From assembly GCA_018657765.1 (NCBI GenBank), contig JABHWM010000020.1:18786-82785 (forward strand): a DNA stretch of 64,000 nucleotides, in the 5' to 3' direction. Both the position numbers and the translations under genes were made by a program. Positions 8,811-53,141 of this stretch are shown here, piece after piece (within the stretch, counting starts at the first letter, position 1; each line of letters starts with the position of its first letter). The stretch comes from Minisyncoccota bacterium (GTDB lineage Bacteria; Patescibacteriota; Microgenomatia; UBA1400; PJMF01). The notes below the pieces were generated by a model. It searched no databases. It was given only the letters and a program-made list of their open reading frames with translations, and was not told where the DNA came from.

Positions 8811-8818
8811 AAAATAAA

Positions 8819-9826: not shown

Positions 9827-9830
9827 AGAT

Positions 9831-10412
9831 ATGCTAGAGATTAATTTTCTCAGCCAGCGAAGACTCACTTTGACAAAAGTTGAAGAAAAAGATGTTGTCT
9901 ACCAAAAATATAGTTCTTGGGTATTTGGAGGAGTCTTACTACTTTTTTCTATCGCTGCAGGATTTAATATTTTTTTCACCCAACAACTCAAAAAAATTAA
10001 TACCAGTGAAGAACTCTTTACAAAACAAATAGCTGGTGAAGAATCAACTGAACTTACATACCTTGTCTTTGCCCATAAATTAAAAACTGTCAAAAAACTT
10101 TATCAAAATAGAAGTAATAAACAACAAGCTATTGATTATTTTTCAAACCTTTTTGGTAACCAGGTATTTTTATCTGGAATGAACTATGGGGGAGACACTA
10201 ATGAACTCTCTCTAAGATTAACTAGTGAAAATGTCTTTGCTTTAGAAAAAATTCTAAATACATTGGATTCAGAAAATGTAAAAAACTCTTTTTCATCCGT
10301 CACTAAAAGTGGCCTGAGAAGAGATAATAATGGAAGCTACAACCTTGATATTGCTATAGAATTACTAAAACAAGGAGAAATTAAAGAAGAGGAGAGTGAT
10401 GGCAACACTTAA
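9831..10412 (+). CDS. pilN: Type IV pilus assembly protein PilN
   Basis: N-terminal INFLSQRR (INLLP-type motif) followed by a single TM helix. Positioned after pilM. Confidence 0.65.
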   Translation: MLEINFLSQRRLTLTKVEEKDVVYQKYSSWVFGGVLLLFSIAAGFNIFFTQQLKKINTSEELFTKQIAGEESTELTYLVFAHKLKTVKKLYQNRSNKQQAIDYFSNLFGNQVFLSGMNYGGDTNELSLRLTSENVFALEKILNTLDSENVKNSFSSVTKSGLRRDNNGSYNLDIAIELLKQGEIKEEESDGNT

Positions 10413-11232
10413 TAATCTTAATTCCATTAATTTTTCTTTGATTATGAGTACTAGAAAAAAACTAGTCACTGCTATCTCCCTTGGAATAACTAGCTTTATT
10501 CTCTTGATTCTAACTTATACCCAAATAACAGCTATTTTTGAAACAAGAAGAAAAATAGAGATTACCCAAAAAAAAGTTGATCAATTAAATGCAAAAACTA
10601 CAGAGTTACAACAACTAAAATTCACACCAGAATATGCTCAAGCAAGTAGAATGAGTGAAGTTTTACCTTCATATAAACCACTACTAGAGCTTCTCAATAA
10701 TCTAAATTCTGTTGCCAATAAAACAAATGTTTCTATTACTGAATTTCAGATAAACCCAGGTGAAATCATTACTGAAGAAGAAGGAAAAACCAAGGTATTG
10801 GTGAAAAAAAAGCAATCAGCAGAATACGACCAATTAAATCTAGAACTTAGTATTCTAGGGGAGCTAAATCAAGTAAAAGAGTTTATGAATCTGATAGAAC
10901 GTGTATCCCCGTTAACAACTATTACTAGCCTGACTATAGATAGAAAAACAACTAGTTTTACTACAGAGGACCAGCAACTTACCAGAGCTGACCTGTTTCT
11001 TAATACTTATTACTACACAAAGCCTATTTCTTCGACTCTGTCTTCTGCATTACCAGATATCACTGTAGAAGAAAAAGATATTTTTCAAGAAATTCTAGAC
11101 TTTACCCCTCCAGAAGTAGAGAGTCAGACTCAGATTATTGGCGGGAACAACACAGACTTATTTGGAATAGATGGATTAGCTGTTAGTGATCTAGAAAAAC
11201 AAATAGAAAAAGAATTAACTTTTACAGAATAA
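10396..11232 (+). CDS. PilO-like bitopic pilus assembly protein
   Basis: Single TM helix, then a coiled-coil segment (RRKIEITQKKVDQLNAKTTELQQL). Overlaps the pilN stop by 17 nt, which suggests translational coupling. Confidence 0.45.
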   Translation: MMATLNNLNSINFSLIMSTRKKLVTAISLGITSFILLILTYTQITAIFETRRKIEITQKKVDQLNAKTTELQQLKFTPEYAQASRMSEVLPSYKPLLELLNNLNSVANKTNVSITEFQINPGEIITEEEGKTKVLVKKKQSAEYDQLNLELSILGELNQVKEFMNLIERVSPLTTITSLTIDRKTTSFTTEDQQLTRADLFLNTYYYTKPISSTLSSALPDITVEEKDIFQEILDFTPPEVESQTQIIGGNNTDLFGIDGLAVSDLEKQIEKELTFTE

Positions 11233-14373: not shown

Positions 14374-16458
14374 TTGTTAGAAAAAATACAAAACATGTCT
14401 AAAATTTTTTTTGATAGATCCCCAGGAAAACCAACTGATCGTGAACTACTAGCTGCCTTCGGTGGTAGAGGTAGAGACGCCCGTTTAAAAACAAGAGCTA
14501 ATGTTCGCTCTATGGAAAAATCTAGACAAGCTCAAGAATCTGTGGAAAGTTTGCCTGGATATAAGAAGGTTCATCTTTATGCAGACCCAAGATTAGTAGA
14601 TCAGGTTTTAAATACTTTAGAAGAAAACTTTGCTGCAATGGAATCTGCAAGATTAAGTAAAGCAAAAGCTCAATTAACTTGGGAAGCTGCACGGAGAGTT
14701 GCCAAAAAAGCTGAAGAGGCTGGAATAACTCCAGCAGAATTAAGTGCTGCTGCAAATAGTGAAAAACCAAATAGGCTTTTTTCGAAGTTTGCATCAATTA
14801 TAGAGAAAATTGGAGATACTCTAGAACCAAAACTTGTCTACAAATTAGCTGCTCCTATTTTAACCTTTGCTTTTATTTTATCTGCTTGTGGTGGTGAAGC
14901 TACTGCAACAGAAGAGCCAGATGTAAAGCCTGGAGTAACAATAGTAGCAGAGGTACCTCCAACAGCAGTAAAACCTCCTACAGAAAAAGCTCCGGCCCCT
15001 GCTATAGCTACTAGTATCCCTATGTCAGATGTTAATCTGACTTACTCTTCACAATACTCAGGGTACGAATTGGAAGCACAAGTTTTTGTTGCAAACAACT
15101 GGCCAGCTAGTCTATCTGGTGAAGCTCTTGGACAATTTGGAAGTGTGGCCTTAATTTCTAACTATGAAGTTGCAGACATTTCAAATAATCCTAGAGGTCT
15201 TATCCTCAAAATAATTGGTGAGGGTTGGCCTGAAGGAACTCATGTAATGGAATCTCCTTTTAAACCAGGAGAGCTACTATTTATGACAACTAGTTATGCT
15301 AGTGAACAACTAGGAGTAGAAGTAGCTAGTTTTGAAATAGGTGCTGACGGAAAGCCTGTTGCTGTAGATAGCAATGGAAATGTTGTGGGGTATATAAAAT
15401 ATAACGAAGATGGTACTACCTCGTATATCCTTGGGGGGAAAGATAAAGCTCCAAATGCTGTGGTTATAGAAAAAGATTACTTTGAGATGAGTATTGAGCA
15501 AAGATGGGAACACACAGCTTCATTCACAAATGAAATAAATAATGGTTTCACTGGTCTATTAGAAATAATTCCCGATCCTGATGTAGTACTTAATACAAAT
15601 CCAACAGATCCTTCTGTTTACTGGAATCCCACAACAAATAAATGGGAGTATGAAAATGAAGGTAATACAAATCAACTTGATAAAACTGGTGAAAGTTTTG
15701 GTGGTATGGTAGCGGATACAATAGAGACAGATGATGGTAACTTTATAATAAAAGACCCAGAAACTGGAGTAGAAATGACCTTTCCAGGAACAGTCTTTTT
15801 ACCTGGATTTGGAGAAATTTCACTAAAAGAGATAGCTGCAATGAATAATGAAGAATTTGGTACTAAATTAGTAGACGCTTTAATAGAAAAAGCACCAGCA
15901 GAATCAAATCCTATTTTTCTAAGCAGAACAGATAGTGTCAAAGATGATTCTGTATTTTTACCTGGATTTGTAGTTGGAACTCCAGAAGAAGATTATCCTT
16001 TAGCTGGTGGATTAAAACCAGGTGTTAACAGATCCGAAAGTGATATAGCATTTTATCAAATAGATAGTAATGACTTTTATAATCTTACTTTCAGCCCAGA
16101 GACAGGTGAAGTAATGTTTTCTGTTAAAACAAAACAAGTTAACCCTATTAGTACTTTAAATATTACTTACTCTCCAGATGGATCAACTGATTTTCAGACA
16201 AAATCTTATGGAACTACTGATAATTTTGGAATGAACGGGAAAGATGAATTTGCTGTACTTATAGAACATCATGTTCCAATAGTGTCACATAATGAAGGCG
16301 GGGGAGTTCCTGTATTACAAGGAAATCAGGGAATTTTTGGTCCAGAAGAGTTTCTTACAATGTTCTCATTTAGCTCTGAACAAGAGATTATAGATTTTGC
16401 AAAACAATATAAACTAGCAGTGTCATATGCTTTTAGAATAGCATCTCCAAAAAGATAG
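14374..16458 (+). CDS. Hypothetical bitopic envelope protein (N-terminal ~155-aa cytoplasmic region, TM with lipobox-like ILSAC, ~520-aa external domain)
   Basis: Long uninterrupted ORF with TTG start (alternative ATG at 14395). The only hydrophobic segment is LAAPILTFAFILSAC|GG (Cys172 codon at 14887-14889). No recognisable family motifs. Confidence 0.7.
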   Translation: MLEKIQNMSKIFFDRSPGKPTDRELLAAFGGRGRDARLKTRANVRSMEKSRQAQESVESLPGYKKVHLYADPRLVDQVLNTLEENFAAMESARLSKAKAQLTWEAARRVAKKAEEAGITPAELSAAANSEKPNRLFSKFASIIEKIGDTLEPKLVYKLAAPILTFAFILSACGGEATATEEPDVKPGVTIVAEVPPTAVKPPTEKAPAPAIATSIPMSDVNLTYSSQYSGYELEAQVFVANNWPASLSGEALGQFGSVALISNYEVADISNNPRGLILKIIGEGWPEGTHVMESPFKPGELLFMTTSYASEQLGVEVASFEIGADGKPVAVDSNGNVVGYIKYNEDGTTSYILGGKDKAPNAVVIEKDYFEMSIEQRWEHTASFTNEINNGFTGLLEIIPDPDVVLNTNPTDPSVYWNPTTNKWEYENEGNTNQLDKTGESFGGMVADTIETDDGNFIIKDPETGVEMTFPGTVFLPGFGEISLKEIAAMNNEEFGTKLVDALIEKAPAESNPIFLSRTDSVKDDSVFLPGFVVGTPEEDYPLAGGLKPGVNRSESDIAFYQIDSNDFYNLTFSPETGEVMFSVKTKQVNPISTLNITYSPDGSTDFQTKSYGTTDNFGMNGKDEFAVLIEHHVPIVSHNEGGGVPVLQGNQGIFGPEEFLTMFSFSSEQEIIDFAKQYKLAVSYAFRIASPKR

Positions 16459-16514: not shown

Positions 16515-17162
16515 GTGGAAAATGAAAATATTAAAACTCTAACTGATCCAAAGCAAAAACAGGTATTATCTTTTTTTATTATAACTCTGATATTTTTTGT
16601 CGGTGTTTTATCTTTATATATATTTCTTTTTCTTAAAAAGAATAAAACTATAACAACTAAACCTACCCGGATAGAACGACCAGAAACGGAGTTCTTTGAA
16701 AAGAAATCACCTAACTCTGAGATTATCAAAACTACAGAAAATCCAAAAAACATAGTCCTTACTGACTTAGATTTGGCTCAAGATGACACTCAATCTATTG
16801 GTAAAGTTCTTCAGGGATATTCTGATAGTTATGATCCTAGTCAGCAAATATTTAAATTAAAAAATAAGCTAGTAAGAAGTACTACTCTACAACTGTTAGA
16901 AACTAGTACCAAAGAGATAACTCAATTCTATTGCTGGCCAGATACAATCTCTAGTAAAAATGGACCAGTGGAAGTTCAATCGCTACAAATATTTGTGGAA
17001 CCAGATGGTAGAGATGTAATAATGCCAACAGAAAAAATCATACCTTTGGATCAATTAGAAATATTTTTGAAAAAAGATCATTATATTATTCTTCAACTCA
17101 AACAAATATTCGATATAAATAAAACCAATGCTATTCAAAAATTAATTATAGTAGGCTGCTAG
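16515..17162 (+). CDS. Hypothetical membrane-anchored protein
   Basis: GTG start and one N-terminal TM helix (VLSFFIITLIFFVGVLSLYIFLFL). Same strand as, and tightly spaced with, its neighbours. Confidence 0.5.
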   Translation: MENENIKTLTDPKQKQVLSFFIITLIFFVGVLSLYIFLFLKKNKTITTKPTRIERPETEFFEKKSPNSEIIKTTENPKNIVLTDLDLAQDDTQSIGKVLQGYSDSYDPSQQIFKLKNKLVRSTTLQLLETSTKEITQFYCWPDTISSKNGPVEVQSLQIFVEPDGRDVIMPTEKIIPLDQLEIFLKKDHYIILQLKQIFDINKTNAIQKLIIVGC

Positions 17163-17168
17163 TAATAT

Positions 17169-19019
17169 ATGAAACAATTAAAATTATTTTTTACTATTTT
17201 TCTAAGCGTATTTTTCCTAGTAATTACATCTTTACCTAGAAAAAAATTTTCAAATAAAGTTTATGCTGCTTGCCCTGGTAACAGTAGCTGTTCATCTGAT
17301 GGCTGTGGAGTAGAATCATTACAATATACAGGTACCTTTGATGATGGATCTTCAACCCTCACCTGTACATATGATCCAGACTATTGTCAAAGTCCTGACG
17401 CTGCAACAACTGTTCCATGTCCAGATTCAGCCGATTGCCCAGCTGCATGTGAACCATGTGGTTGTACACCAGATCCAACTGATCCTTATGATACTTGTAG
17501 TTGTCCTGACTGTGATGCCAATGATCCTGATGCTGGCTGTAATCTTCCAGGTGCCTGGGATGGAGTCTGTTTTGAGGGTGGAGTAAATGATGGCTGTATT
17601 GACGATCAACATTGTATAACTTCTAATGACGGAGGAGCTTGTTTCATAAATAACGTAGATGTCTACTGCTCTGCTGGTTGTGCTGCAGGACCAACCCCTA
17701 CCTCTGGACCAGGACCAACCTCACCACCTGGAGTCACTCCCACACCCACCCCAGGCCCTCGTACCTTCCAAGGAAACTTCTACGAAGATGCAGATGCTAC
17801 AACAACCGGTATAGGAGGTACAGATAATCTCTGTACAGGACTTACCACAGCTCCTATAGTTCCAGCTATTTACATGCCTGGCTCAGAAGTCTCTGCTACT
17901 AGAACTGGTGGAGAGTCACAATCTGTATTAGCAGATACAGCCTATTACTCCATCACCACCAACACCTCCAACTCTGACTACACCGTAGCTCTCCAACTTC
18001 CATTCCCACCACCAGATCCAGACAATGCCTGGCAGTGTGCTTGTAATGCAGATCCTGGTGACCCATATCGCTGTCTTTATACAAATCAGACTCCTTCTGA
18101 CTTTGCTGTTGCTAACTTCTTCCTCAAACAAGCCAATATTGCAGATGCAGCTTGGTTCCAGACTCTAGGGGGTAGCTCTTGGGCAGCAAATAATATTGAA
18201 TCACTCATACCAACTAGTACCTGTACACCACCTAGCTGTTCTCCAGCATTAATATCTAGTGATCCAGCTGGTAATTCTGATAGTGCCGGATTCCCTCTTA
18301 CAGAGTCTGGAAGTGTCTCAACTAGTATCAGTGGTGATAACTATATTCATGAAGCAACAGATAGAACAACTGCTGTTCAAGCACAAGCCACAGGTGTATC
18401 TGTTCCTACAGAGAACTATGATTACTTCTTTGATAAAGTAGGGGACCAAGCTGAAACTCTTGCTACTGCTGCCAAGCCAATAGTAGGAACTGAACTGGGA
18501 ATCTATCAACATACAGGTAACCTAGTCATTGATGAAAATAATCCATGGAACTTAACAAATACAGAAAGAATTATTGTCTTTGTAGATGGAGATATAACTA
18601 TTGATGATACAGTCGCTGGTGAAAATAGAATTACTACTGTAGCCACTGGCGGTAATGCCTACCTAATGTTTATTTCTAGTGGAGATATAACTGTTACAGC
18701 GGATGTTGGTTACAGTAATATTGCCACAGATCCAACCACTGCAGATATCTCAAATCTAGAAGGTGTTTTCATTGCAGATGGAACCCTAACCATTGCTGGA
18801 ACAGATAGCACTACAGATCGTAAATTCATCGGTGCTGGTACTTTTGTAGGCTGGAGTGGAATAGCTTTGGGACGTAACTTTGATGATGGAGCAAGCCCAA
18901 CTCTCAATGATGATGAAGCTACAGAAACATTTATCTTTAGACCAGACTTCTTGGTAAATACTCCAAAAGCAATAAAATCTGCTCAAATGACCTGGAGAGA
19001 AGTAGAACCTAGTTTCTAA
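17169..19019 (+). CDS. Secreted protein: signal peptide + 20-Cys/Asp-rich module + Pro/Thr linker + ~420-aa conserved domain (paralog A)
   Basis: Signal peptide ending KVYA|A. 20 Cys in residues 35-171 (nt 17271-17681). Linker GPTPTSGPGPTSPPGVTPTPTPGP. The C-terminal domain is colinear with the next gene. Confidence 0.8.
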   Translation: MKQLKLFFTIFLSVFFLVITSLPRKKFSNKVYAACPGNSSCSSDGCGVESLQYTGTFDDGSSTLTCTYDPDYCQSPDAATTVPCPDSADCPAACEPCGCTPDPTDPYDTCSCPDCDANDPDAGCNLPGAWDGVCFEGGVNDGCIDDQHCITSNDGGACFINNVDVYCSAGCAAGPTPTSGPGPTSPPGVTPTPTPGPRTFQGNFYEDADATTTGIGGTDNLCTGLTTAPIVPAIYMPGSEVSATRTGGESQSVLADTAYYSITTNTSNSDYTVALQLPFPPPDPDNAWQCACNADPGDPYRCLYTNQTPSDFAVANFFLKQANIADAAWFQTLGGSSWAANNIESLIPTSTCTPPSCSPALISSDPAGNSDSAGFPLTESGSVSTSISGDNYIHEATDRTTAVQAQATGVSVPTENYDYFFDKVGDQAETLATAAKPIVGTELGIYQHTGNLVIDENNPWNLTNTERIIVFVDGDITIDDTVAGENRITTVATGGNAYLMFISSGDITVTADVGYSNIATDPTTADISNLEGVFIADGTLTIAGTDSTTDRKFIGAGTFVGWSGIALGRNFDDGASPTLNDDEATETFIFRPDFLVNTPKAIKSAQMTWREVEPSF

Positions 19020-19038
19020 CCTGGTATAAATTAAAAAT

Positions 19039-20364
19039 ATGCTATTTATTTTTCTACTAACCTTTCTTTTTTTGGTGTCTTTTTCACCAGTTTCTGCTAA
19101 TAGTTTTTCTGGTCAACTTTATGAAGATCCTGATGCCAATACAATTGGTTTTGGAGGGACAGATAACCGCTGTGAGGGAAGTCTTGAAACACCTGTTGTA
19201 GGAGCTGGCTTCAGAGCAAAAGCACTTAGGACCGGAGAAACAGACTACGGCACCTTCATGGGAGCTACTTATACCATTACTACTGGAACAAATAACCTAG
19301 ACTATACAGTCACCATAGATATGCCTTATCCTCCAGCAGATCCCGCTAATGCCTGGCAATGTGCTTGTAATGCAAATCCACTAGATCCATACCAATGTAT
19401 TTTTACCAATCAAGATCCTACTGATTTATCATCCTTAAATTTTTTTATAAAACGAGCCAATGCCAATAACAATTCATGGTGGCAAGTCCTAGGTGGAAAT
19501 ATATTCTCCAAACAAAATATCCAAAGCCTCATTCCAAACTCTGAACTACCTGGATACTGTAATACTACACCTGGATGTATTCCTGCTTTGATAGATACAA
19601 ATCCTACACTAACCCTAGAGAGTCCCGGGTTTGCCTTTACTCTAGATGGCTCTATTTCTACAAGCCAAATCCCAGGATCATCCTTTCTACATACAAGTCA
19701 AAGTAGAACAAATGCCCTCCAAGCTTTTGCCTTAACTTCTGATCTTCCAGAAGAAAAATATGACTTTTTTTACAAAAAAATGAAACAAGAAAGTGTTGCT
19801 TTACCTAGTTCTCAAAAACCAGTTCCAACAGAAAATCCAGGGATATATCTCCATTCTGGAGATCTAACAATTAATGATCAAAACTCCTGGCAGGTGTTAA
19901 ATACAGAACAAATAATTGTTTTTATCACTGGGAACTTACTGATTGATGATACTAGTGGTGAGCAACGCATAATCACAGTAGAGAAGGGTGGAGATGGATT
20001 TCTATCATTTATTGTTCAGGAAGATATTATTATCTCTCCTAACGTGGGCTACACAGATATTATGACTGATCCACACTCAGCAAATATTCCACTAGTAGAA
20101 GGAGTCTTTATAGCTGATGGTAAAATTCAAATTCAAGGAACAGCTGATACTCAAGATAAAAAATTTATTGGTGCTGGAACCTTTGTAAGTTGGGATGGGG
20201 TACAACTCCAAAGAAGCTTTGCTACACCAGGGAACAATTCTTTGAATAATATTAGTCCAGCAGAAGTCTTTATTTTCCGTCCAGATTTTCTAGTTAATAC
20301 TCCCAAGAACATGAAAGCTGCTCATTTTTACCTCAGAGAACTACAACCAAAACTATTACAATAA
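19039..20364 (+). CDS. Secreted protein, paralog B of the preceding gene's C-terminal domain
   Basis: Signal peptide ending VSA|NS. Blocks shared with paralog A: YEDxDAxTxGxGGTDNxC, NAWQCACNAxPxDPYxC, IIVFxxG..IDDT, EGVFIADG, KFIGAGTFV and IFRPDFLVNTPK. Confidence 0.8.
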   Translation: MLFIFLLTFLFLVSFSPVSANSFSGQLYEDPDANTIGFGGTDNRCEGSLETPVVGAGFRAKALRTGETDYGTFMGATYTITTGTNNLDYTVTIDMPYPPADPANAWQCACNANPLDPYQCIFTNQDPTDLSSLNFFIKRANANNNSWWQVLGGNIFSKQNIQSLIPNSELPGYCNTTPGCIPALIDTNPTLTLESPGFAFTLDGSISTSQIPGSSFLHTSQSRTNALQAFALTSDLPEEKYDFFYKKMKQESVALPSSQKPVPTENPGIYLHSGDLTINDQNSWQVLNTEQIIVFITGNLLIDDTSGEQRIITVEKGGDGFLSFIVQEDIIISPNVGYTDIMTDPHSANIPLVEGVFIADGKIQIQGTADTQDKKFIGAGTFVSWDGVQLQRSFATPGNNSLNNISPAEVFIFRPDFLVNTPKNMKAAHFYLRELQPKLLQ

Positions 20365-20399: not shown

Positions 20400-20996
20400 A
20401 TGAACATAAAAAATATAATAAACCAGCATAAAAATAGTAAAGAAAAATCTTGTAAACAAAATCAACAAGCTGGCTTTACTCTGATAGAACTACTCATCGT
20501 CTCGACAATTACTGTTATGGTTATGATGACCGTTACTGCAATGTTACTTACTTTTATCATTACTTCAAAAAAATCTAGCATCAAGCAAAAAGTTAATAAT
20601 GAAGGTAATAATGCTTTATCAAAAATAGAGTTCGTTTTACGGAACTCCCAAAAACTGGTGGCTGGACTGGACGGTTCTACTATCTGTAGTAATGATGCAG
20701 AAACACCTATGACAGATATTGCTATTCAAGGACTAGACGGCTATGTAACTACTCTTCAGACATATCCTTTGGAAAATGGACAAATTGCCTCATATTCTTC
20801 GGCTATTAATGATTACTACTATATAACCTCAGATGAAACAACTCTTTCAAATTTACAGTTTACTTGTCTGACAGGAGAAGAGAATTCTTACTATGTAGGA
20901 GTCTCGTTTGACCTCAAAATCGGTTCTGGACTATCAAGTGATAAAGAGACAGCTATTGAGAATTTTCAGACTGGAATAACCCTTAGAAATCATTAA
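20400..20996 (+). CDS. Prepilin-type N-terminal cleavage/methylation domain protein (minor pilin)
   Basis: Class III signal ..NQQAG|FTLIELLIVSTI with Glu at +5. The leader is 25 aa long. Confidence 0.8.
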   Translation: MNIKNIINQHKNSKEKSCKQNQQAGFTLIELLIVSTITVMVMMTVTAMLLTFIITSKKSSIKQKVNNEGNNALSKIEFVLRNSQKLVAGLDGSTICSNDAETPMTDIAIQGLDGYVTTLQTYPLENGQIASYSSAINDYYYITSDETTLSNLQFTCLTGEENSYYVGVSFDLKIGSGLSSDKETAIENFQTGITLRNH

Positions 20997-21017: not shown

Positions 21018-21491
21018 CTAATCCCATTTACGAAAAGTCTGAACAAGCTCTACATCTTTTACACTATCATTAGTGGACCATGAAACAGTAATTTTCACTC
21101 TTATCTGTGGCTCACTCGGTACTGTTTCATCAACAACAACCTCTGCTTCTCTAAAAAACTCTTGACTGGATATAACAATTGTATCTGTAGCCTCACAAGC
21201 ACCAGCCACAAAAGCTTCTTTAGGAGCGGGGATAGTTTGAAAACAATAAGTAGTATTATCTCTCAAGGAATCTGAAAAACCTTCCCAACCCAATAAAGTT
21301 CTTTCTCTACGAAATGCCTCCATTGCTATTTGAGCTCTCTTTACTGCCTGAGACCTGTATTCTGACTCCGCATTTGTCTTCAGTGATAAAGTCAAACTAG
21401 CTACAATAGCCGTCAAAACTAAAGCCATAACACCTACAGCTACAATAATCTCGATAAGACTAGAACCTTTTTGTAATACAAATTTACTCAT
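21018..21491 (-). CDS. Pilin-like/pseudopilin protein (PilV/GspI-like)
   Basis: MSKFVLQKG|SSLIEIIVAVGVMALVL, with Gly at -1, Glu at +5 and a hydrophobic helix. Confidence 0.7.
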   Translation of the reverse strand: MSKFVLQKGSSLIEIIVAVGVMALVLTAIVASLTLSLKTNAESEYRSQAVKRAQIAMEAFRRERTLLGWEGFSDSLRDNTTYCFQTIPAPKEAFVAGACEATDTIVISSQEFFREAEVVVDETVPSEPQIRVKITVSWSTNDSVKDVELVQTFRKWD

Positions 21492-21997
21492 TACTGCCAG
21501 TCTCCTTCGCTAAACCTACCTTCTCTATAAATAGTAAAAGTAAAACTATTTGTTTCATTAGAAACATTAATAGCCTCACTAGCTGCTCCTCCAGTCAGAT
21601 CAACCCCAGCATGTAAAACATTAAAATTATAATCAATAGTAGGACTAATATTTACTCTTCTAGCAAACTCATAGGTCTCTGCAGCATCGGCTGTTCCAAT
21701 ACTACAAGTTGCTTGTAAAGAAAGCTCTGTTATTTCTCCAACTTGATAAGTCATTACTCTATAACCACTTAGCTGATCACAACCACCAAGATCACCAGAG
21801 CTAGCTTCTGCCTGAGCTCTTTGAAAAAACGTCTTTAACTCGTCTACAGAATTACTGACTTTTCTTTTATCTAGATAATTTAAAAAAGTTCCAATAATAC
21901 TACTCATTAAAATCAAACTAATAGCTACTGCCACTAACAACTCTATTAAGGTAAATCCTTGCTTTTTTTTGTTGGTAAGTTTTTTATTAATTAACAT
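21491..21997 (-). CDS. Prepilin-type minor pilin
   Basis: Start preferred at ATG 21997 (MLINKKLTNKKKQG|FTLIELLVAV). The longer ORF-track start at 22045 would overlap the upstream pilin gene. Confidence 0.8.
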   Translation of the reverse strand: MLINKKLTNKKKQGFTLIELLVAVAISLILMSSIIGTFLNYLDKRKVSNSVDELKTFFQRAQAEASSGDLGGCDQLSGYRVMTYQVGEITELSLQATCSIGTADAAETYEFARRVNISPTIDYNFNVLHAGVDLTGGAASEAINVSNETNSFTFTIYREGRFSEGDWQ

Positions 21998-22013
21998 CTT
22001 TTGTAAAATAAAA

Positions 22014-22415
22014 CTACGGATTCTGTACAGAATAAGCAGTGTCATCTGGTTCTAAAGCAGCCTCTAGAGTAAATCCGGATGCCTCAGTTGTATTACACGT
22101 TCCAGATGGGACATAGGTATATAAAGGATTTGCCTCACTACCCAAAGGATCAAAAGGAATTTCATTTGTATAGCCATCAATAGTAGTCAACATTGCCAAA
22201 TAAGTAACATCTGCTGGATAACAACCATTATCACTACGATACAAAACAAGCTGCTGCTGAACAGACAAAATATCTGACTTTCTTTTGGCATTACGACTAC
22301 TTTGAGTAGCCTGCCTGTAACTAACCAGAGCTATAGTTGTAAGAATAATCATGATTGTAGAAACCACAAGGATCTCGATCATTGAAAATCCATGATTGTT
22401 GTTTTTTATTTTCAT
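22014..22415 (-). CDS. Prepilin-type minor pilin
   Basis: MKIKNNNHG|FSMIEILVVSTI class III signal. Confidence 0.8.
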   Translation of the reverse strand: MKIKNNNHGFSMIEILVVSTIMIILTTIALVSYRQATQSSRNAKRKSDILSVQQQLVLYRSDNGCYPADVTYLAMLTTIDGYTNEIPFDPLGSEANPLYTYVPSGTCNTTEASGFTLEAALEPDDTAYSVQNP

Positions 22416-22453
22416 AATATGAGATTAATACTTTCTATTACTTTTCATAAACT

Positions 22454-22885
22454 TTACTGTAAGTTTGTCAAACAATAATAATCACCTGAAGTATAGTCAC
22501 AAGTAACTCCAGAAGGTGCAGAAGAATTTCCTATACTACCTTCCAAATAAGCACAGACACAATATCCGGTAGCGTCACAACCATCAGCAGTGTTATAGAT
22601 AAAACTACCAGAGTTTTTGGGATCGCTTGGCAAACCTCCAGGCATGATTGCACCAGATCCAGAGTCATAAGCCGCCATAGTACTACATGCTTCATAAGAA
22701 GTATTATCTGCTTTATATTGCTCAAAAGCATCCTGCATAGCTTTTATATCACCCCGTCTTCTACTATCTCTACCTTTTTTCTGTACCGTAATAAATGCCA
22801 CTGTTCCCAAAGCAATCAAGATTCCCATGATAGAGATCACTACCAATAGTTCTAATAGACTAAAACCTTTTTGTTTTTTTTTCAT
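22454..22885 (-). CDS. Prepilin-type pilin (GspG/PilA-like)
   Basis: MKKKQKG|FSLLELLVVISIMGILIALG, followed by a RDSRRRGDIKAMQDAFEQY helix typical of T2SS-G/T4 pilins. Confidence 0.85.
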   Translation of the reverse strand: MKKKQKGFSLLELLVVISIMGILIALGTVAFITVQKKGRDSRRRGDIKAMQDAFEQYKADNTSYEACSTMAAYDSGSGAIMPGGLPSDPKNSGSFIYNTADGCDATGYCVCAYLEGSIGNSSAPSGVTCDYTSGDYYCLTNLQ

Positions 22886-22939: not shown

Positions 22940-23974
22940 TTATGGACTTACTTGAACTTGTATTCTAGAAAGTCCTTCCAGGCTACTTTTTACACCCTGC
23001 TTTGTCTCTGCCTGAAGAATAACATTATAAATACACCTAGATCCACCAGTACAAGTATATGTATGTTGAACCCTGCCATTTAGATCTAGTAAATCTTCTA
23101 TTTTCCCATCACCAAAATTAATAGTTACCTTATTAACCTGATCTTCTTCTGAATTTTTTTCTGCATACTTATTCAAAATTCTTATTAATTTATCATCCCA
23201 ACGCAGTTCCATCTCAGACTCTCCAAAAATAGTTTCTTGGGCAAAGACATCTCCTTTGACATCACTAACTGTATAAATAAACTCCATAAAATCTCCAGAT
23301 TTTAGAAAAACAACTCTAGATTCAGAACTAACAGCTGGCTCAGAATTAAATGTCAAAACTACTGGTTTTTCACTACAACTAGAATAACAAGATCTAGGGC
23401 AATCAAGAGCATCTGTCTGTTGAAAGTCTTGACCAGATTGATAGGTGCTTTCACAGCAAGTATAGCCATATCCACCACAAACGGTAGCTGGACCTTCATT
23501 CAAAACCACACTTAGATCTGCATCGACTTTGCTAGAACTCACAATAACTGACTCATCTTCATAAACAATTCCAGTTCTACCAAAAATAGAAAGCTCTAGG
23601 CCATGAAGATATTGACCTTGAATAAAACCAGACTGACCTTTTCCTCTTCTTACCAAAGCTGGTAAGGTTTTCCTCTTGATAACATTACGAAGATCTTCAG
23701 AAACCTGACAAACAGATTCCAAAACATACTCTCTATCAGAAATAAAACGAAGCTGATTTCTTACCAAAATGCCATCATCAGTAAAAGCACCACCATACTC
23801 CAAGCAATCTTTGACAAGGTCGTGAGGAGTCTGAAGCTTAGAAAGGTATCGGACATCACTTTTGAGCTGTCTTAGCCCTGTAGAAAGAAGAATCTCCCGA
23901 CTAATAAAACCTCCTAGAAAAAAGAGAATAAATATAAAGAAAGTGGCAGTAAAAAATATCTTTAGAACTCGCAT
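22940..23974 (-). CDS. Hypothetical membrane-anchored Cys-rich protein with PKD-like C-terminal domain
   Basis: N-terminal TM helix, a Cys cluster (CGGYGYTCCES..DCPRSCYSSCSEKP), and a C-terminus INFGDGKIE..VQHTYTCTGGSRCIYNVILQAETKQG that resembles a PKD repeat. Confidence 0.6.
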   Translation of the reverse strand: MRVLKIFFTATFFIFILFFLGGFISREILLSTGLRQLKSDVRYLSKLQTPHDLVKDCLEYGGAFTDDGILVRNQLRFISDREYVLESVCQVSEDLRNVIKRKTLPALVRRGKGQSGFIQGQYLHGLELSIFGRTGIVYEDESVIVSSSKVDADLSVVLNEGPATVCGGYGYTCCESTYQSGQDFQQTDALDCPRSCYSSCSEKPVVLTFNSEPAVSSESRVVFLKSGDFMEFIYTVSDVKGDVFAQETIFGESEMELRWDDKLIRILNKYAEKNSEEDQVNKVTINFGDGKIEDLLDLNGRVQHTYTCTGGSRCIYNVILQAETKQGVKSSLEGLSRIQVQVSP

Positions 23975-23989
23975 AAATTAGCCAGTAAA

Positions 23990-24808
23990 TCAGCTAACTA
24001 ATATCTTGACATATTCTGCCCAAACTGCATATCCCCAGACTAAACTAAGACCTGTAGAAAGCAGGAGAAATGGACCAAAAGGCAGAGTTTGTCCAAACTT
24101 TTTTTTCTTTATTAAAATCAAAAATACTCCTACCAAAGCCCCTATTACAAATGATCCAAAAATAGCGACTAAAATTCTTTGCCATGATCCAAGTAAAAGC
24201 CCCAACGGTATAGCCAGTTTTACATCTCCAAAACCAAACCCTTTGCCTTTAGTAAAAAACCACAAGGAAAAAAAGAAACTTACTAGACAAAAAGTCCATA
24301 ACAAACTAAATCCAAAATCTCTAAACTGCATCTCACCTTTATAGAGTAGGGCGAACCTATAAGCCAAAGTTCCTATTGTAAGAAGAGCAACCGTCCAATC
24401 AGGAATAATCATATACTTGAGGTCTGTAATAAAAATAACCACAAAAATAACTGCAACAAATAACCAAAAGGCTGGTTGCACATAGAGTAGAGGAGCGGCA
24501 GTGATCTTGAAAAAAACAAACCCTGCAAAGTACCACCATAAAAATAAAATACCAGTCATTCCCTCTACCAGAGGATGAACAAGACCTATTTTTGCCTGAC
24601 ATTTGGAACATTTTCCCTTCAGAAATAAATAGGAAAACAAAGGAATATTTTCATACCATGGGATCTTCTTTTTACAGTGTTCACAAACAGAACGAGCTCG
24701 TACCCAATCCTGACCACGCATAGATCTATAAATCAAGACATTTAGAAAACTACCAACAGCAGTTCCAAAGAAAAAAACTAGAATACCCATGATCTCAAAA
24801 AAGTTCAT
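23990..24808 (-). CDS. pilD: Prepilin peptidase (A24 family, PilD)
   Basis: N-terminal Zn-finger-like CEHCKKKIPWYENIPLFSYLFLKGKCSKC, the catalytic GFGDVKL motif, and a polytopic topology. Confidence 0.9.
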   Translation of the reverse strand: MNFFEIMGILVFFFGTAVGSFLNVLIYRSMRGQDWVRARSVCEHCKKKIPWYENIPLFSYLFLKGKCSKCQAKIGLVHPLVEGMTGILFLWWYFAGFVFFKITAAPLLYVQPAFWLFVAVIFVVIFITDLKYMIIPDWTVALLTIGTLAYRFALLYKGEMQFRDFGFSLLWTFCLVSFFFSLWFFTKGKGFGFGDVKLAIPLGLLLGSWQRILVAIFGSFVIGALVGVFLILIKKKKFGQTLPFGPFLLLSTGLSLVWGYAVWAEYVKILVS

Positions 24809-24901
24809 GTCTTTGAGTATACATGGTTGAGATTATGGGTGGTATTTAAAAATATTTTTTGTGAGACAAGAATAAAACTGTAAAAATAAGAAATAAGCAG
24901 T

Positions 24902-24930
24902 AAAAAAGCGGCCATGATGACCGCTTTTTT
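24902..24930. terminator. Bidirectional hairpin AAAAAAGCGG-9 nt-CCGCTTTTTT
   Basis: 10-bp stem (24902-24911 / 24921-24930) with A/T runs on both sides. Lies between the small Flp-like gene and pilD. Confidence 0.5.
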
Positions 24931-24961
24931 GTTCTTTAAATTTACCTCCCTAGAATAAAGT

Positions 24962-25150
24962 TTAAAAGGATAATGCATTTTCCATTATCCAAATAAAATA
25001 ATCCGCCAAATAGTTCATCCATCCTAAGATGGACAAACCTGTTTCGATTTTAATAAAGTAACTAATCCCAGAAAGGATTATTACTAAAACTAAAATCATC
25101 AAAGCCGACTCTACGAGCCCTTGACCTTTCTCTTTTTCACTAAATAGCAT
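24962..25150 (-). CDS. Small Flp/Fap-like pilin candidate (62 aa)
   Basis: ATG at 25150 is preceded by GGAGAG. MLFSEKEKG|QGLVESALMILVLVIILSG resembles the Flp-type G/xxxxE(Y) class III signal. The ORF-track TTG start at 25171 is less likely. Confidence 0.45.
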   Translation of the reverse strand: MLFSEKEKGQGLVESALMILVLVIILSGISYFIKIETGLSILGWMNYLADYFIWIMENALSF

Positions 25151-25536
25151 TTTTCTCTCCAATAATTTCAAGTTATCTTTTTAAAGATAAAGTTTAGTTT
25201 TACGAGCTTGAAACAACAATTCAGGATTTAATCTAGAATCACTCTTTCAAGCCCATATCTCTATTAAAATTACAAGAAAAATAGGGTAGAGGTGCTAAAA
25301 AACTTTATTTAAATTTATCTACTGAATATTTACTGCATTAGTAAAATCCAATATCAAAAAAATTAAATTTAGCTTATAGCATTTAATTTTGAAAGAACTC
25401 AATCATTATATATTAAAAGTTATAGGATGTCAATCTTGGCTAAAATAAATACAAAAAAACTGCCCACACCCCTAAAGGGGTTTATCTCACAATAAACTGA
25501 CAAACAACTTAATAATCACTTCAACCCCAACAAAAA

Positions 25537-25558
25537 CTCCCCTGTAAAAACAGGGGAG
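25537..25558 (-). terminator. Rho-independent terminator downstream of the major pilin gene
   Basis: Perfect 8-bp stem CTCCCCTG/CAGGGGAG with a 6-nt loop. On the minus strand it is followed by TTTTTG. Confidence 0.7.
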
Positions 25559-25588
25559 TAGTATCTTCAATAATTATTTTTTACAAAA

Positions 25589-26221
25589 TTATGGGAGACA
25601 GACACAGTTACCAATAGCACCACATTGAGCAGTGTTACCGATAGCACTAGCAGCTGGATAATCAGCTGGATAGTTATCTAGAGTATCATCTCCATCTGGA
25701 TCAAGTCTTGTATCTACCTCTTGCACAAAAGCATTTGATTTTGGTGCAAAACAAGCATAAGTACTAGCTCCTTGAGTCCCAGAATTATAAAGATAGAGGT
25801 AATTATAAGTTGTCTGAGAAACTCTTTCCAAGAAACTTTGTTTCAACTCATCAGCTCCAGTACAACCTACAGTAGAAGCTGTTCCTATTTTTTCTGCAAT
25901 AGGACAAGTACCACCACTATCTGTTAAAGTACTATCTTCAAAATGGACCCATGCTAAACCAACATTTCCAGAATCAGAAGCCCCTACTTGCCATGGATAA
26001 AATCCATTAAATGCATAGTAACGATCGATAGCACTAATCAATTGTTCTGCATCAGATCTGTTTCCAGTATCTCTACCTCTGTTGATCTGCTCAATAGGAT
26101 TAATGGCTGCCAAAACTGCCACTGCCAAAATTCCTAAAATACCGATAACAATCAGTAGTTCAATCATCGTAAAACCAGCTTGCTGTTTTATTTGATTTAA
26201 AAGTGAAAATATCTTTTTCAT
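25589..26221 (-). CDS. pilA: Type IV pilin, probable major subunit
   Basis: MKKIFSLLNQIKQQAG|FTMIELLIVIGILGILAVAVLAAINPIEQINRGRD. Has its own terminator, an AAAGGAA RBS, and C-terminal Cys pairs. Confidence 0.85.
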   Translation of the reverse strand: MKKIFSLLNQIKQQAGFTMIELLIVIGILGILAVAVLAAINPIEQINRGRDTGNRSDAEQLISAIDRYYAFNGFYPWQVGASDSGNVGLAWVHFEDSTLTDSGGTCPIAEKIGTASTVGCTGADELKQSFLERVSQTTYNYLYLYNSGTQGASTYACFAPKSNAFVQEVDTRLDPDGDDTLDNYPADYPAASAIGNTAQCGAIGNCVCLP

Positions 26222-26323
26222 ATTATCTAAATTCCTTTCTTTAATTTCAATATCTACTATAAACTATTTCTTGACAGTAATACAAGGGTGTTCCAGTCCA
26301 AAACAACTATTTTAATAAAAAAA

Positions 26324-27526
26324 CTAAAACTGACTGGTCAAACTGTATATTGGCATAATAATAGCAATCACCATTGCCCCAACACCTATTCCTAGTACTA
26401 CCATAATTAATGGCTCCATAGCAGAGGTAAGATTCTTGACTGCTTGCTCACTTTCAGATTCAAAATACTTTGAGAGCTTTAATAAAACTTCATCTAGTTT
26501 TCCAGTTTCTTCACCTACCGCAAGCATTTGATGTAAAATTCCTGGAAATAAGCTAAATACAGAAACTGCTCCAGACAAAGAAACACCTTTCTCTACTTTT
26601 TTACTAATACTTTGCATTGCCTCTCGATACAAAATACTATCCATAGACTCAGTCACGATCATCAAAGCATTCAATAAAGGAACTCCAGAATTCAATAGAA
26701 GAGATAATGTTCTAGCAAAACTAGTCAAAATTATTTTCTGCCTTAGGGTTCCAATAATAGGTACTTTAAACAAAAATCCATCTATTTTTCTTTGACCAAT
26801 TTTTGTTTTGTTCCAACTTCGAAGTCCAGAAACTCCGCCACCAATAATAGAAAGAATTAACCACCAATACTTCGCCATAAAGTTGGCTACAGACATCAAA
26901 ATCAGAGTAGGGAGTGGTAGCTCAGCCCCAAAATCTTTATACATATCAGTGAGTTTCGGAATAACAAAAATCATCATCACAAAACCAACAACCAACATAG
27001 CGATAAAAACAATTATAGGGTAAATCATGGCCCCTTTTGTTTTTGCCTTAAACTCTTTATCTTTCTCTAAATTTTCAGCTAATTTATCCAATACTTTATC
27101 CAAAACACCACCCAATTCACCAGCTTTTACCAACTGAATATAGGTACGATCAAAAACATCGGATTGCTTTGCCAGAGATTTGGCAAAGGTAGATCCACCT
27201 TCTACTTCTCGCAGTAGAGAACTTACAACTTCTTTCATTGCTGGATTATCTTGTTCTTTGAGAATATTTAACCCTGTAGCCAAGGGTAGACCAGCATCAA
27301 TCATGGTTGATAACTGTCTAGTAAAGTTAACTAGATCTTCATGTTTTACTTTATTTAGAGCACCAGACAGAACAGAAAGCCCAGAACCACTTAAAAGAGA
27401 AATATCTATTACCAATAATTTTCTACTAATTAAAACACCCGCAGCTTGACTCTTATCTTGAGCTTCGACTTTACCTTTTACGGTTTCACCGTGAGGATTT
27501 TTGGCTGTATAAGAAAAAATAGCCAT
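26324..27526 (-). CDS. pilC: Type IV pilus platform protein PilC (GspF family)
   Basis: 400 aa with two T2SS-F repeats, three TM segments and the typical ..GEETGKLDEVL.. motif. Confidence 0.9.
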   Translation of the reverse strand: MAIFSYTAKNPHGETVKGKVEAQDKSQAAGVLISRKLLVIDISLLSGSGLSVLSGALNKVKHEDLVNFTRQLSTMIDAGLPLATGLNILKEQDNPAMKEVVSSLLREVEGGSTFAKSLAKQSDVFDRTYIQLVKAGELGGVLDKVLDKLAENLEKDKEFKAKTKGAMIYPIIVFIAMLVVGFVMMIFVIPKLTDMYKDFGAELPLPTLILMSVANFMAKYWWLILSIIGGGVSGLRSWNKTKIGQRKIDGFLFKVPIIGTLRQKIILTSFARTLSLLLNSGVPLLNALMIVTESMDSILYREAMQSISKKVEKGVSLSGAVSVFSLFPGILHQMLAVGEETGKLDEVLLKLSKYFESESEQAVKNLTSAMEPLIMVVLGIGVGAMVIAIIMPIYSLTSQF

Positions 27527-27533
27527 AAACTTA

Positions 27534-52982: not shown

Positions 52983-52989
52983 AAATCTG

Positions 52990-53073: not shown

Positions 53074-53141
53074 TAATTAATGTTAGTGATTATATCACTT
53101 CTATCTTGCTTTTTCCCTCAAACCTCGGCATAGTATTAGAG

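What the first reader, a model, noticed from the sequence alone, without database searches (positions are those of the whole stretch)
17169..20364. Tandem paralogs sharing a ~420-aa domain; the first carries an extra 20-cysteine, Asp/Pro-rich N-terminal module
Residues ~199-616 of the 17169 product and ~22-441 of the 19039 product are colinear. They share several long blocks:
- (F/L)YED(A/P)DA.T.G.GGTDN.C
- DYTV....P(F/Y)PP.DP.NAWQCACNA.P.DPY.C..TNQ.P(S/T)D
- IIVF..G....DDT
- EGVFIADG
- KFIGAGTFV.W.G
- (T/V)FIFRPDFLVNTPK

Identity is roughly 40% by eye and was not computed.

Only paralog A has the N-terminal module (residues 35-171, nt 17271-17681), joined through a GPTPTSGPGPTSPPGVTPTPTPGP linker. 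The module has 20 Cys and strings such as CPDSADCPAACEPCGCTPDPTDPYDTCSCPDCDANDPDAGC. These are vaguely reminiscent of Ca-binding thrombospondin type-3-like repeats.

The alternating hydrophobic pattern in the shared C-terminal part suggests a beta-helix or beta-solenoid. A modular adhesin paired with a module-less paralog is typical of surface-variation or binding systems.
Basis: seen in the sequence. Interest (0 to 1): 0.65.

Follow-up and report, generated by a model that had tools for sequence, protein, structure and literature searches.

The report
Pilus-locus adhesin pair in a Patescibacterium
Two neighbouring genes in an ultrasmall (Patescibacteria) bacterium encode secreted, disulfide-rich proteins of a large family that no database describes, and their fixed position inside the type IV pilus gene cluster suggests they are the pilus-borne grip used to hold a host cell.

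Summary
A (17169-19019, 616 aa) and B (19039-20364, 441 aa) align colinearly over 424 residues at 48% identity (E 5e-138). Only A carries a 137-residue module with 20 Cys, followed by a Pro/Thr linker.

- The shared domain is a β-sandwich, a loop-rich region and a roughly 5-rung β-solenoid, not one long solenoid.
- Thrombospondin type-3 similarity is not supported.
- No in-genome cassette or variation mechanism was found.

New points:
- Both genes sit in a type IV pilus supercluster, in an operon of membrane protein, bitopic 215-aa protein, A, B and a prepilin.
- This order persists in relatives down to about 30% identity. In 32 of 56 species-representative genomes a w198-type prepilin gene directly follows the family gene.
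- The family has 2,710 50%-identity clusters. It matches no Pfam, NCBIfam or PHROG model and no solved structure.
- The conserved domain is always C-terminal. The N-terminal parts vary and are Cys-rich, with CBM, lectin, Ig or TSP1 domains in some members.
- B is a headless duplicate found in one Pacebacteria subclade.

Best reading (about 0.45): these are non-pilin, PilY1-like pilus-associated adhesins built on a different fold. The main rival is a cell-surface adhesin anchored by the upstream bitopic partner.

The parts
17169..19019 (+). Gene A: 616-aa secreted long form (signal peptide, Cys-rich head, PT linker, conserved domain)
   Evidence: ORF. Orthologs of 565-678 aa. AF2 model with mean pLDDT 77.
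17169..17267 (+). Sec-type signal peptide of A (aa 1-33, ..NKVYA|AC). It has no prepilin G/FTLxE motif.
   Evidence: Read directly from the sequence. Helix 2-21 in the model. No N_methyl hit. No family member has a prepilin motif.
17271..17681 (+). Cys-rich head of A (aa 35-171): 20 Cys, Asp/Gly/Pro-rich. It forms two small beta subdomains (aa 47-83 and 133-167) around a poorly modelled D/P/C string (aa 91-131).
   Evidence: Composition. Model. No Pfam, PDB or Foldseek match. It diverges faster than the rest of the protein.
17682..17759 (+). Pro/Thr-rich linker (aa 172-197)
   Evidence: Sequence. pLDDT below 50 for residues 174-191. Equivalent PT linkers occur in homologs.
17763..19016 (+). 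Shared domain of A (aa 199-616): beta-sandwich (~198-321), loop-rich region (~322-415), helix (417-427) and about 5 solenoid rungs (443-589)
19039..20364 (+). Gene B: 441-aa headless paralog (signal peptide aa 1-20, then the shared domain only)
   Evidence: AF2 model with mean pLDDT 83 and pTM 0.66. B orthologs at 54-73% identity in 7 species representatives, always directly after an A ortholog.
19459..20361 (+). Family-wide conserved core in B (aa 141-441, from 'WWQvlGG' to the C-terminus). The solenoid rungs lie at about aa 263-412.
   Evidence: Conservation over 166 sequences. The profile search always places the match at the C-terminus.
20400..20996 (+). w198: prepilin-type minor pilin (..QQAG|FTLIELLIV), the last gene of the operon
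   Evidence: N_methyl hit at 24.7 bits against a cutoff of 21.2. TIGR02532 hit. An ortholog lies directly downstream of the family gene in 32 of 56 genome loci, often with overlapping stop and start codons.
16515..17162 (+). w215: bitopic ~200-aa membrane protein directly upstream of A, with an N-terminal TM helix and two conserved Cys
   Evidence: jackhmmer finds homologs immediately upstream of the family gene in 15 other loci, including the non-pilus loci L038 and L039.
14374..16458 (+). w694: first gene of the operon. It is a large, fast-evolving protein with one hydrophobic segment (aa ~155-172).
   Evidence: Positional counterparts of 612-731 aa. Sequence similarity is detectable only in the closest relatives (26-29%).
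21018..22885 (-). Four convergent minor-pilin genes (157, 184, 133 and 143 aa)
   Evidence: N_methyl hits in all four: three above the cut-off (27.5-37.3 bits), the 157-aa one below it (17.1 vs 21.2 bits). Sub-threshold ComGE, ComP_DUS and T2SSG hits. Orthologs in the related loci.
22940..30422 (-). Rest of the pilus cluster: conserved 344-aa protein, PilD, probable major pilin (25589-26221), PilC, PilT, PilB
   Evidence: Pfam hits. Same order in L001, L003, L004 and L061.
8010..11232 (+). PilX_N protein (sub-threshold hit, 22.4 vs 25.5 bits), PilM, PilN-like, PilO: the upstream arm of the same pilus supercluster
   Evidence: Pfam hits. Same arrangement in the related loci.

Best explanation
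A and B belong to a large, unannotated family of Sec-exported, disulfide-bonded proteins. In Microgenomatia/Pacebacteria (Patescibacteria) this family is a fixed component of the type IV pilus locus. I propose that they act like PilY1/PilC. The conserved C-terminal domain (beta-sandwich plus short beta-solenoid) would dock onto the minor-pilin priming complex, in particular the prepilin encoded just downstream (w198). PilB-driven assembly would then carry the protein out on the pilus. The variable N-terminal Cys-rich head, held on a flexible Pro/Thr linker, would bind a structure on the host-cell surface, and PilT-driven retraction would pull the epibiont onto its host. B is a lineage-specific duplicate that lost the head. 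It would occupy the same docking site and give head-less pili or pili of different specificity, or act beside A.

Shown: paralogy, export signals, domain architecture, family size, conserved synteny and frequent overlapping or abutting stop and start codons with the pilin gene (suggesting translational coupling), fast-evolving heads, binding-type passenger domains.

Inferred: physical association with the pilus, tip location, host binding, and the role of B.
For: 1. Context. A and B lie in a + strand operon ending in a prepilin gene. That operon converges on four minor-pilin genes followed by PilD, a pilin, PilC, PilT and PilB, with PilX_N/M/N/O upstream.
2. Synteny. The order bitopic protein, family member, w198-type prepilin, convergent minor pilins holds in relatives at 55%, 38%, 30% and 30% identity (L001, L004, L003, L061). 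Among 56 species-representative genome loci, 32 have the w198 ortholog directly downstream and 35 have pilus genes within 6 kb.
3. Coupling. The family gene's stop codon overlaps or abuts the pilin start in many loci, which suggests translational coupling.
4. Not pilins. A and B have Sec-type signal peptides. They have no prepilin motif, no C-terminal hydrophobic segment and no LPXTG (seen in the sequence) and no SLH hit, so retention needs a partner.
5. PilY1-like logic. In all 150 listed matches the conserved domain is at the C-terminus, while N-terminal extensions run from 0 to more than 1,200 aa. Heads diverge faster than the docking domain (25-53% against 56-73%).
6. Passenger domains. 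Where recognisable they are binding modules: CBM_4_9, Laminin_G_3, F5/8-C, Big_2, fn3, TSP_1, DUF4215.
7. No enzyme signature. Family-wide conserved residues are mostly Gly, aromatic, Cys and Pro.
8. Precedent. In Saccharibacteria, large pilus-locus proteins without a PilD signal (PilX1/PilX2) are proposed adhesins, and PilX2 is needed for efficient host binding (PMC11623550). Pili connect ultrasmall cells to hosts in cryo-TEM (PMC7906910).
Against: - 21 of 56 genome loci show no pilus genes nearby. These include all Chloroflexi copies (three in one Aggregatilineales genome) and Beckwithbacteria, so the domain is not bound to pili in every lineage.
- The neighbour kept even in two non-pilus loci (L038, L039) is the upstream bitopic membrane protein, not the pilin. 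This fits a cell-surface anchor equally well.
- There is no homology or fold similarity to the PilY1/PilC beta-propeller.
- No interaction prediction, expression data or localisation data could be obtained.
- Synteny in small, streamlined Patescibacteria genomes can persist without direct physical interaction.
Confidence: 0.45

Rival explanations
1. A and B are cell-surface adhesins anchored by the upstream bitopic membrane protein (w215) and are not carried on the pilus. The conserved C-terminal domain would be an envelope-anchoring module presenting variable binding heads at the cell surface. Its position in the pilus locus would then reflect co-regulation of attachment functions, not physical assembly.
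For: w215 homologs sit immediately upstream of the family gene in 15 further loci, including the non-pilus loci L038 and L039 (Anaerolineales). A ~190-217-aa upstream gene, with an N-terminal hydrophobic segment where its sequence could be read, is also seen in L036, L041 and the P0047 locus. 21 of 56 loci lack pilus genes. The architecture of a conserved C-terminal domain with a variable N-terminal passenger is also typical of wall- or S-layer-anchored proteins.
Against: In 32 of 56 loci a prepilin gene follows directly, often with overlapping stop and start codons. That is hard to explain by co-regulation alone. The domain matches no known wall-binding module such as SLH, LysM or CWB. The two models are not exclusive.
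Confidence: 0.28
2. A and B are structural components of the pilus machinery in a cell without an outer membrane. They could be an extracytoplasmic collar or guide through the wall or S-layer, or a priming or chaperone factor for minor pilins. Adhesion would be secondary or absent.
For: Strictly conserved position between the alignment-complex genes and the minor pilins. The headless B shows that the conserved domain alone is maintained. Patescibacteria lack PilQ-type secretins (own knowledge), and no secretin gene lies in the annotated cluster 8010-30422.
Against: Machinery parts rarely carry hypervariable N-terminal extensions of 0 to more than 1,200 aa with lectin, CBM or Ig domains, or whole domains inserted in surface loops. 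Copies in Chloroflexi sit outside pilus loci.
Confidence: 0.12
3. A and B are beta-helix carbohydrate-active enzymes (lyase or hydrolase) or ice-binding-like proteins that act on the host envelope.
For: The best structural matches, although weak, are beta-helical DUF3494 ice-binding proteins, and glycoside-hydrolase beta-helices appear lower in the list. CBM domains occur in some members.
Against: All Foldseek matches have E>=0.03 and TM<=0.45. There is no Pfam, NCBIfam or PDB sequence match. The solenoid has only about 5 rungs. Conserved positions are mainly structural residues without a recognisable acidic catalytic cluster.
Confidence: 0.07

Closest known systems
PilY1 / PilC (non-pilin type IVa pilus tip adhesins of Pseudomonas, Myxococcus, Neisseria; Pfam PF05567)
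   Same: Large non-pilin protein with a Sec signal peptide. It is encoded among the minor-pilin genes and followed by a minor-pilin gene (own knowledge: compare pilX-pilY1-pilE). The C-terminal domain is conserved and the N-terminal part is variable. Paralogs can coexist.
   Different: There is no sequence or fold relationship. PilY1 has a C-terminal beta-propeller, whereas this family has a beta-sandwich plus a short beta-solenoid. The heads are small disulfide-rich modules, not vWA domains. Tip location is not shown here.
PilX1 / PilX2 of Nanosynbacter lyticus TM7x (Saccharibacteria)
   Same: Large pilus-locus proteins of a Patescibacterium without a PilD-type signal. They carry accessory binding domains and are proposed pilus adhesins. 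PilX2 is needed for efficient host binding (PMC11623550).
   Different: The paper describes them as pilin-like 'lollipop' proteins with a jelly-roll/lectin or beta-propeller C-terminal domain. A and B have no pilin helix and a different fold. No homology was tested directly, because the TM7x sequences were not at hand.
DUF3494 / IBP-1 ice-binding beta-helix proteins (e.g. FfIBP 4nu2, 7ehk; 6bg8)
   Same: They are the top structural matches to the C-terminal rungs. Both have short right-handed beta-helix rungs with an adjacent helix.
   Different: The matches are not significant (E 0.03-0.3, TM 0.35-0.45). There is no Pfam PF11999 hit, and the context and domain partners are different.
Pfam DUF7305 (PF23981)
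   Same: Some family members give recurrent sub-threshold hits, including 5 of 46 in alignment A1 plus P0165 and P0162. The hits always fall on the same solenoid rungs and on profile positions within ~46-115 of 185.
   Different: The best score is 20 bits against a cutoff of 27. A and B themselves do not hit. I could not establish what DUF7305 proteins are.
ComZ of Thermus thermophilus (pilus-tip protein with a beta-solenoid domain; recalled from Salleh et al. 2019, not checked here)
   Same: It sets a precedent for a beta-solenoid domain presented by a type IV pilus minor-pilin complex.
   Different: ComZ is itself pilin-like and binds DNA. It did not appear among the top 50 Foldseek matches.

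Membership tests
PilY1/PilC tip adhesins (PF05567) | Sequence or fold match to the PilY1/PilC C-terminal beta-propeller | tested here: not met
   No PF05567 hit for A, B or any of 46 homologs at E<=1. The models are not propellers, and no PilY1 entry is among the top 50 Foldseek matches.
PilY1/PilC tip adhesins (PF05567) | Non-pilin protein with a Sec signal, encoded within the minor-pilin gene set | tested here: met
   Signal peptides without a prepilin motif. Flanked by w198 and four minor pilins, and syntenic in 32-35 of 56 loci.
PilY1/PilC tip adhesins (PF05567) | Physical association with the minor-pilin tip complex and a role in adhesion or pilus priming | not testable with these tools
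   This needs co-folding, pull-downs, or localisation and genetics.
Type IV pilins / modular pilins | Class III signal peptide (G/A | F-x-x-x-E) followed by a hydrophobic N-terminal helix | tested here: not met
   No N_methyl hit for A or B. A regex search found none among 194 family members. The feature is met for the neighbour w198.
Thrombospondin type-3 Ca-binding repeats (PF02412) | Match to the TSP_3 repeat profile (DxDxDGxxDxxD motif, recalled) | tested here: not met
   No Pfam hit for A at E<=0.1. The D/P/C string at residues 91-131 has pLDDT below 50. Calcium binding itself was not testable.
DUF3494 / ice-binding-like beta-helix (PF11999) | Profile match, or a significant structural match to the IBP-1 fold | tested here: inconclusive
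   No Pfam hit. Foldseek puts these proteins first or near the top, but with E 0.03-0.3 and TM 0.35-0.45.
DUF7305 (PF23981) | Score at or above the gathering threshold (27 bits) | tested here: not met
   Best score 20.2 bits (P0165). A and B give no hit. Remote homology remains possible.
Diversity-generating or cassette-type surface-variation systems | Template/variable repeat pair, silent cassettes or invertible repeats near the gene | tested here: not met
   No repeat of 40 nt or more involves A or B, and no such pair exists in the 64-kb window. Reverse transcriptase genes were not searched for.

The most novel reading that the evidence does not exclude
This family is a previously unrecognised, fold-distinct class of non-pilin type IV pilus tip adhesins. 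It would be the functional counterpart of PilY1 in Microgenomatia-type Patescibacteria, and its interchangeable Cys-rich heads would set host range. The conserved C-terminal domain, together with the upstream bitopic protein and the downstream minor pilin, would form a three-part docking module. Chloroflexi would have re-used that module outside pili. In the A+B clade the headless B would compete with or adapt for A, tuning how adhesive the pili are.
Probability: 0.3. Interest if true: 0.75.

Novelty: new variant of a known kind. Interest (0 to 1): 0.55.

Why it matters
How uncultivated Patescibacteria recognise and hold their hosts is a central open question. Outside Saccharibacteria no adhesin has been pinned down. 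This family offers a concrete candidate that can be traced by sequence: 2,710 clusters, no existing annotation, locked into the pilus locus, and with fast-changing binding heads. If it is the pilus-borne adhesin, head types could be used to predict host range from metagenomes. The conserved domain would also define a new way of mounting cargo on a type IV pilus. Even if the tip model is wrong, the domain and its bitopic partner merit a family definition.

Tried and rejected
- Sequence searches of A and B against Pfam, NCBIfam, PHROGs and PDB sequences gave nothing significant.
- Foldseek of both models against PDB, and of B against BFVD, gave no match with E<=1e-3.
- A search with the isolated Cys-rich head in the 5.8-billion-protein index returned nothing, not even the near-identical P0025. 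It therefore says nothing about whether the head occurs elsewhere.
- I tried to learn what DUF7305 is through two paper searches and a protein search with the P0165 solenoid. None helped.
- A metagenome scan seeded with the w198 pilin alignment was meant to test whether that pilin always follows a family member.
- The promoter/terminator scan gave promoter-like counts equal to the shuffled controls and 9 terminator-like sites against about 4 expected; none was followed up.
- Rejected ideas: similarity due to low complexity; a phage tail fibre; a TSP type-3 repeat; tandem-domain fusion proteins, since P0051 and P0052 are single copies with large loop insertions; a DGR or cassette system.
Full report
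**1.

The + strand carries two adjacent ORFs: A (17169-19019, 616 aa) and B (19039-20364, 441 aa). BLASTP with compositional adjustment aligns A199-616 to B22-439 in a single colinear segment. It has 203/424 identities (48%), 65% positives, 12 gaps and E 5e-138.

Residues 35-171 of A contain exactly 20 Cys (D 15.3%, C 14.6%, G 10.9%, P 9.5%). They are followed by the quoted Pro/Thr linker. The shared domain has six Cys at equivalent positions in both proteins.

Both proteins begin with Sec-type signal peptides (A ..NKVYA|AC; B ..SPVSA|NSF). Neither has a prepilin cleavage motif. Neither has a C-terminal hydrophobic segment or an LPXTG signal (seen in the sequence).

**2. Structure**

AlphaFold2 with family alignments gives usable models: B at mean pLDDT 83 and pTM 0.66, A at mean pLDDT 77. 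The shared domain has these parts (B numbering):
- A beta-sandwich at about residues 21-140, which carries the NAWQCACNA motif.
- A loop-rich stretch at 141-240 with moderate confidence.
- A short helix at 241-251.
- A very confident (pLDDT above 90) beta-rich block at 263-412.

The sequence of that last block shows five repeats of the rung pattern hhhhxxGxhxh: IYLHSGDLTI, IIVFITGNLLI, FLSFIVQEDIII, GVFIADGKIQI and KFIGAGTFVSWDGVQL.

Foldseek against PDB and BFVD finds nothing at E<=1e-3. The best matches are consistent but weak. Ole-e-1/Ig-like sandwiches match the first part. DUF3494 ice-binding beta-helices match the last part, with E 0.03-0.3 and target-normalised TM 0.35-0.45.

In A, the head forms two small beta units (47-83 and 133-167, pLDDT about 70-85). 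Between them lies an unmodelled Asp/Pro/Cys string (91-131, pLDDT below 50). Pfam gives no thrombospondin type-3 hit or any other hit.

**3. Context**

The genes lie inside a type IV pilus supercluster.
- Upstream: a PilX_N protein (sub-threshold hit), PilM, a PilN-like protein and PilO (8010-11232).
- Next: a housekeeping block with ribosomal protein S16, RNase III and NusB.
- Then the + strand operon: w694 (14374), w215 (16515), A, B and w198 (20400-20996), a bona fide prepilin (G|FTLIELLIV).
- Converging on it from the - strand: four minor-pilin genes (21018-22885), a conserved 344-aa protein, PilD, a pilin, PilC, PilT and PilB (to 30422).

Composition is uniform across the window at about 30-40% G+C. 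The closest homologs are annotated as Pacebacteria, Paceibacterota or Patescibacteria.

**4. The family**

The word-indexed search found only 50 homologs. All are 'hypothetical', and only one (P0040, Big_2) has any Pfam domain. The exhaustive profile search shows that the family is large: 2,710 50%-identity cluster representatives at E<=1e-3, 1,783 at E<=1e-10 and 572 at E<=1e-30.

In all 150 listed matches the conserved domain is at the C-terminus. The N-terminal extension runs from none to more than 1,200 residues. These extensions are Cys-rich (median 5.5% Cys) and usually end in a Pro/Thr linker. No member has a prepilin motif.

Among 49 long members most of the extension is unannotated. 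Where Pfam recognises something, it is a binding module: CBM_4_9 (3 members), fn3 (2), Gly_rich_2 (2), Laminin_G_3, F5/8 type C, Big_2, TSP_1 and DUF4215. Two members (P0051, P0052) carry 260-500-residue insertions (Gly-rich, LamG) in the loop between the fourth and fifth rung. That loop must therefore be exposed.

Over 166 diverse sequences the best-conserved positions are W147, Q149, P166, C174, C180, several Gly, Y241, D373, R392, F411, R414, P415, D416, P422 and E434. This is a structural signature without an obvious catalytic motif. Some members give recurrent sub-threshold hits to Pfam DUF7305 on the same rungs (best 20 bits against a cutoff of 27). I could not find out what DUF7305 is.

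**5. Synteny**

Four relatives at 55%, 38%, 30% and 30% identity (L001, L004, L003, L061) keep the same neighbourhood. In each, the family member is followed by the w198 ortholog and the convergent minor-pilin/PilD/PilC/PilT/PilB arm, and is preceded by two genes of about 200 and 400-730 aa; in L003, L004 and L061 the ~200-aa gene is directly upstream.

A pattern scan of one genome per GTDB species gave 56 loci.
- In 32 loci a w198-type prepilin gene directly follows the family gene (30 by BLAST and HMM hits, 2 more by motif and HMM only).
- In 35 loci pilus genes lie within 6 kb.
- The family gene's stop codon often overlaps or abuts the pilin start, which suggests translational coupling.
- The other 21 loci show no pilus genes nearby. 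They include Beckwithbacteria, several Microgenomates and all Chloroflexi copies, three of them in one Aggregatilineales genome.

The upstream bitopic protein w215 is a more persistent neighbour. jackhmmer finds homologs directly upstream of the family gene in 15 further loci. These include the non-pilus loci L038 and L039 (Anaerolineales).

**6. Origin of the pair**

The A+B tandem occurs only in 7 species representatives (L005-L011), always in the order A, B, pilin. All other loci have a single copy, in nearly all complete genes a long form. B is therefore a lineage-specific duplicate that lost the head and has since been kept (54-73% identity among orthologs).

Among A orthologs the head is far less conserved than the shared domain (25-53% against 56-73%). 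It shows presence or absence of the central Asp/Pro/Cys string, and the Cys count is always even (12-20). More distant members carry unrelated heads.

Within the window nothing suggests an active variation mechanism. There is no repeat between A and B, no template/variable repeat pair and no invertible repeats.

**7. Interpretation**

The best-supported reading is that the family is a pilus-associated, non-pilin adhesin that works like PilY1/PilC. Its features fit that logic:
- Sec export.
- A conserved C-terminal domain that would dock on the minor-pilin complex, especially w198.
- A variable head on a flexible linker that would bind the host.

Precedents exist within Patescibacteria. In TM7x, large pilus-locus proteins without a PilD signal are the proposed adhesins, and PilX2 is required for efficient host binding (PMC11623550). 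Pili bridge ultrasmall cells and hosts in cryo-TEM (PMC7906910).

This is functional analogy, not family membership. There is no PilY1/PilC profile hit and the fold is different.

The main rival is a cell-surface adhesin anchored through w215. It is favoured by the non-pilus loci and by the persistence of the w215 pairing, and it is not exclusive with the tip model. A machinery role and an enzymatic role are less likely, given the hypervariable binding-type passengers and the lack of a catalytic signature.

**8. Verdict**

The real content is broader than the finding. A and B are members of a large, unannotated extracytoplasmic protein family that is embedded in the type IV pilus locus of Microgenomatia-type Patescibacteria. 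I rate it a new variant of a known kind (a non-pilin pilus adhesin built on an unrelated fold), with moderate-to-good interest. The key claim, physical association with the pilus, remains an inference.

Noticed in passing
window 16515-17162 (+); homologs e.g. L039:4836-5321, L038:4458-5108, L003:9420-10007: w215 is a ~200-aa bitopic protein with an N-terminal TM helix, a conserved 'L(K/R)GY' motif, a Cys in 'CWP' and a Cys at the extreme C-terminus. It forms its own unannotated family and is encoded immediately upstream of the A/B-family gene in 15 further loci, including non-pilus loci and an Anaerolineales genome. It is probably a dedicated partner.
   Followed up: partly
window 14374-16458 (+): The first gene of the operon (694 aa from a TTG start; about 150 N-terminal residues, then one hydrophobic segment ending in 'LSAC') has a positional counterpart of 612-731 aa in related pilus loci. 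Sequence similarity is detectable only in the closest relatives (26-29%), so it is another very fast-evolving envelope protein.
   Followed up: partly
window 22940-23974 (-): A 344-aa Cys-rich protein with an N-terminal hydrophobic segment and a weak PKD hit sits between the minor pilins and PilD. It is conserved at that position in nearly all pilus-type loci long enough to include it (26-62% identity). It has no annotation.
   Followed up: partly
window 8010-30422: The pilus supercluster is split by a housekeeping block (ribosomal protein S16, RNase III, NusB; 11.5-13.6 kb). The whole arrangement, including the interruption, is conserved in relatives at only about 30% identity of the A/B family protein (L003, L061).
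   Followed up: partly
P0051 (aa ~500-765) and P0052 (aa ~320-830): Family members carry whole domains (Gly_rich_2; Gly-rich plus Laminin_G_3) inserted in the loop between the 'EGVFVADG' and 'DRKFIGAG' rungs (B residues 366-374). This is a second display site besides the N-terminus.
   Followed up: partly
L005, L006, L016-L018, L021, L023, L026-L028, L033, L036, L040 and others: Many GTDB species-representative MAGs titled 'uncultured Pseudomonadales' (including HK-STAS-PATE isolates) carry the Patescibacteria-type pilus synteny. They appear to be taxonomically mislabelled in their record titles. CP011212.1 (L043, titled candidate division TM6) shows the same synteny.
   Followed up: no
L013 (Chloroflexi MAG contig QWJF01000021.1), 6085-6870: A truncated family copy (261 aa, 70% identical to A) lies on a 51% G+C Chloroflexi MAG contig, a composition unlike the window. 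This may be a mis-binned contig or a transferred fragment.
   Followed up: no
window 19039 (start of B): A public gene call for B is 430 aa (P0001), which would remove most of the signal peptide. B orthologs keep a hydrophobic N-terminus, which supports the 441-aa start.
   Followed up: partly
window 52989-53375 (+) vs 52989-53073 (-): A 128-aa mechanical ORF overlaps tRNA-Leu(CAA) on the opposite strand. It is almost certainly not a gene.
   Followed up: no
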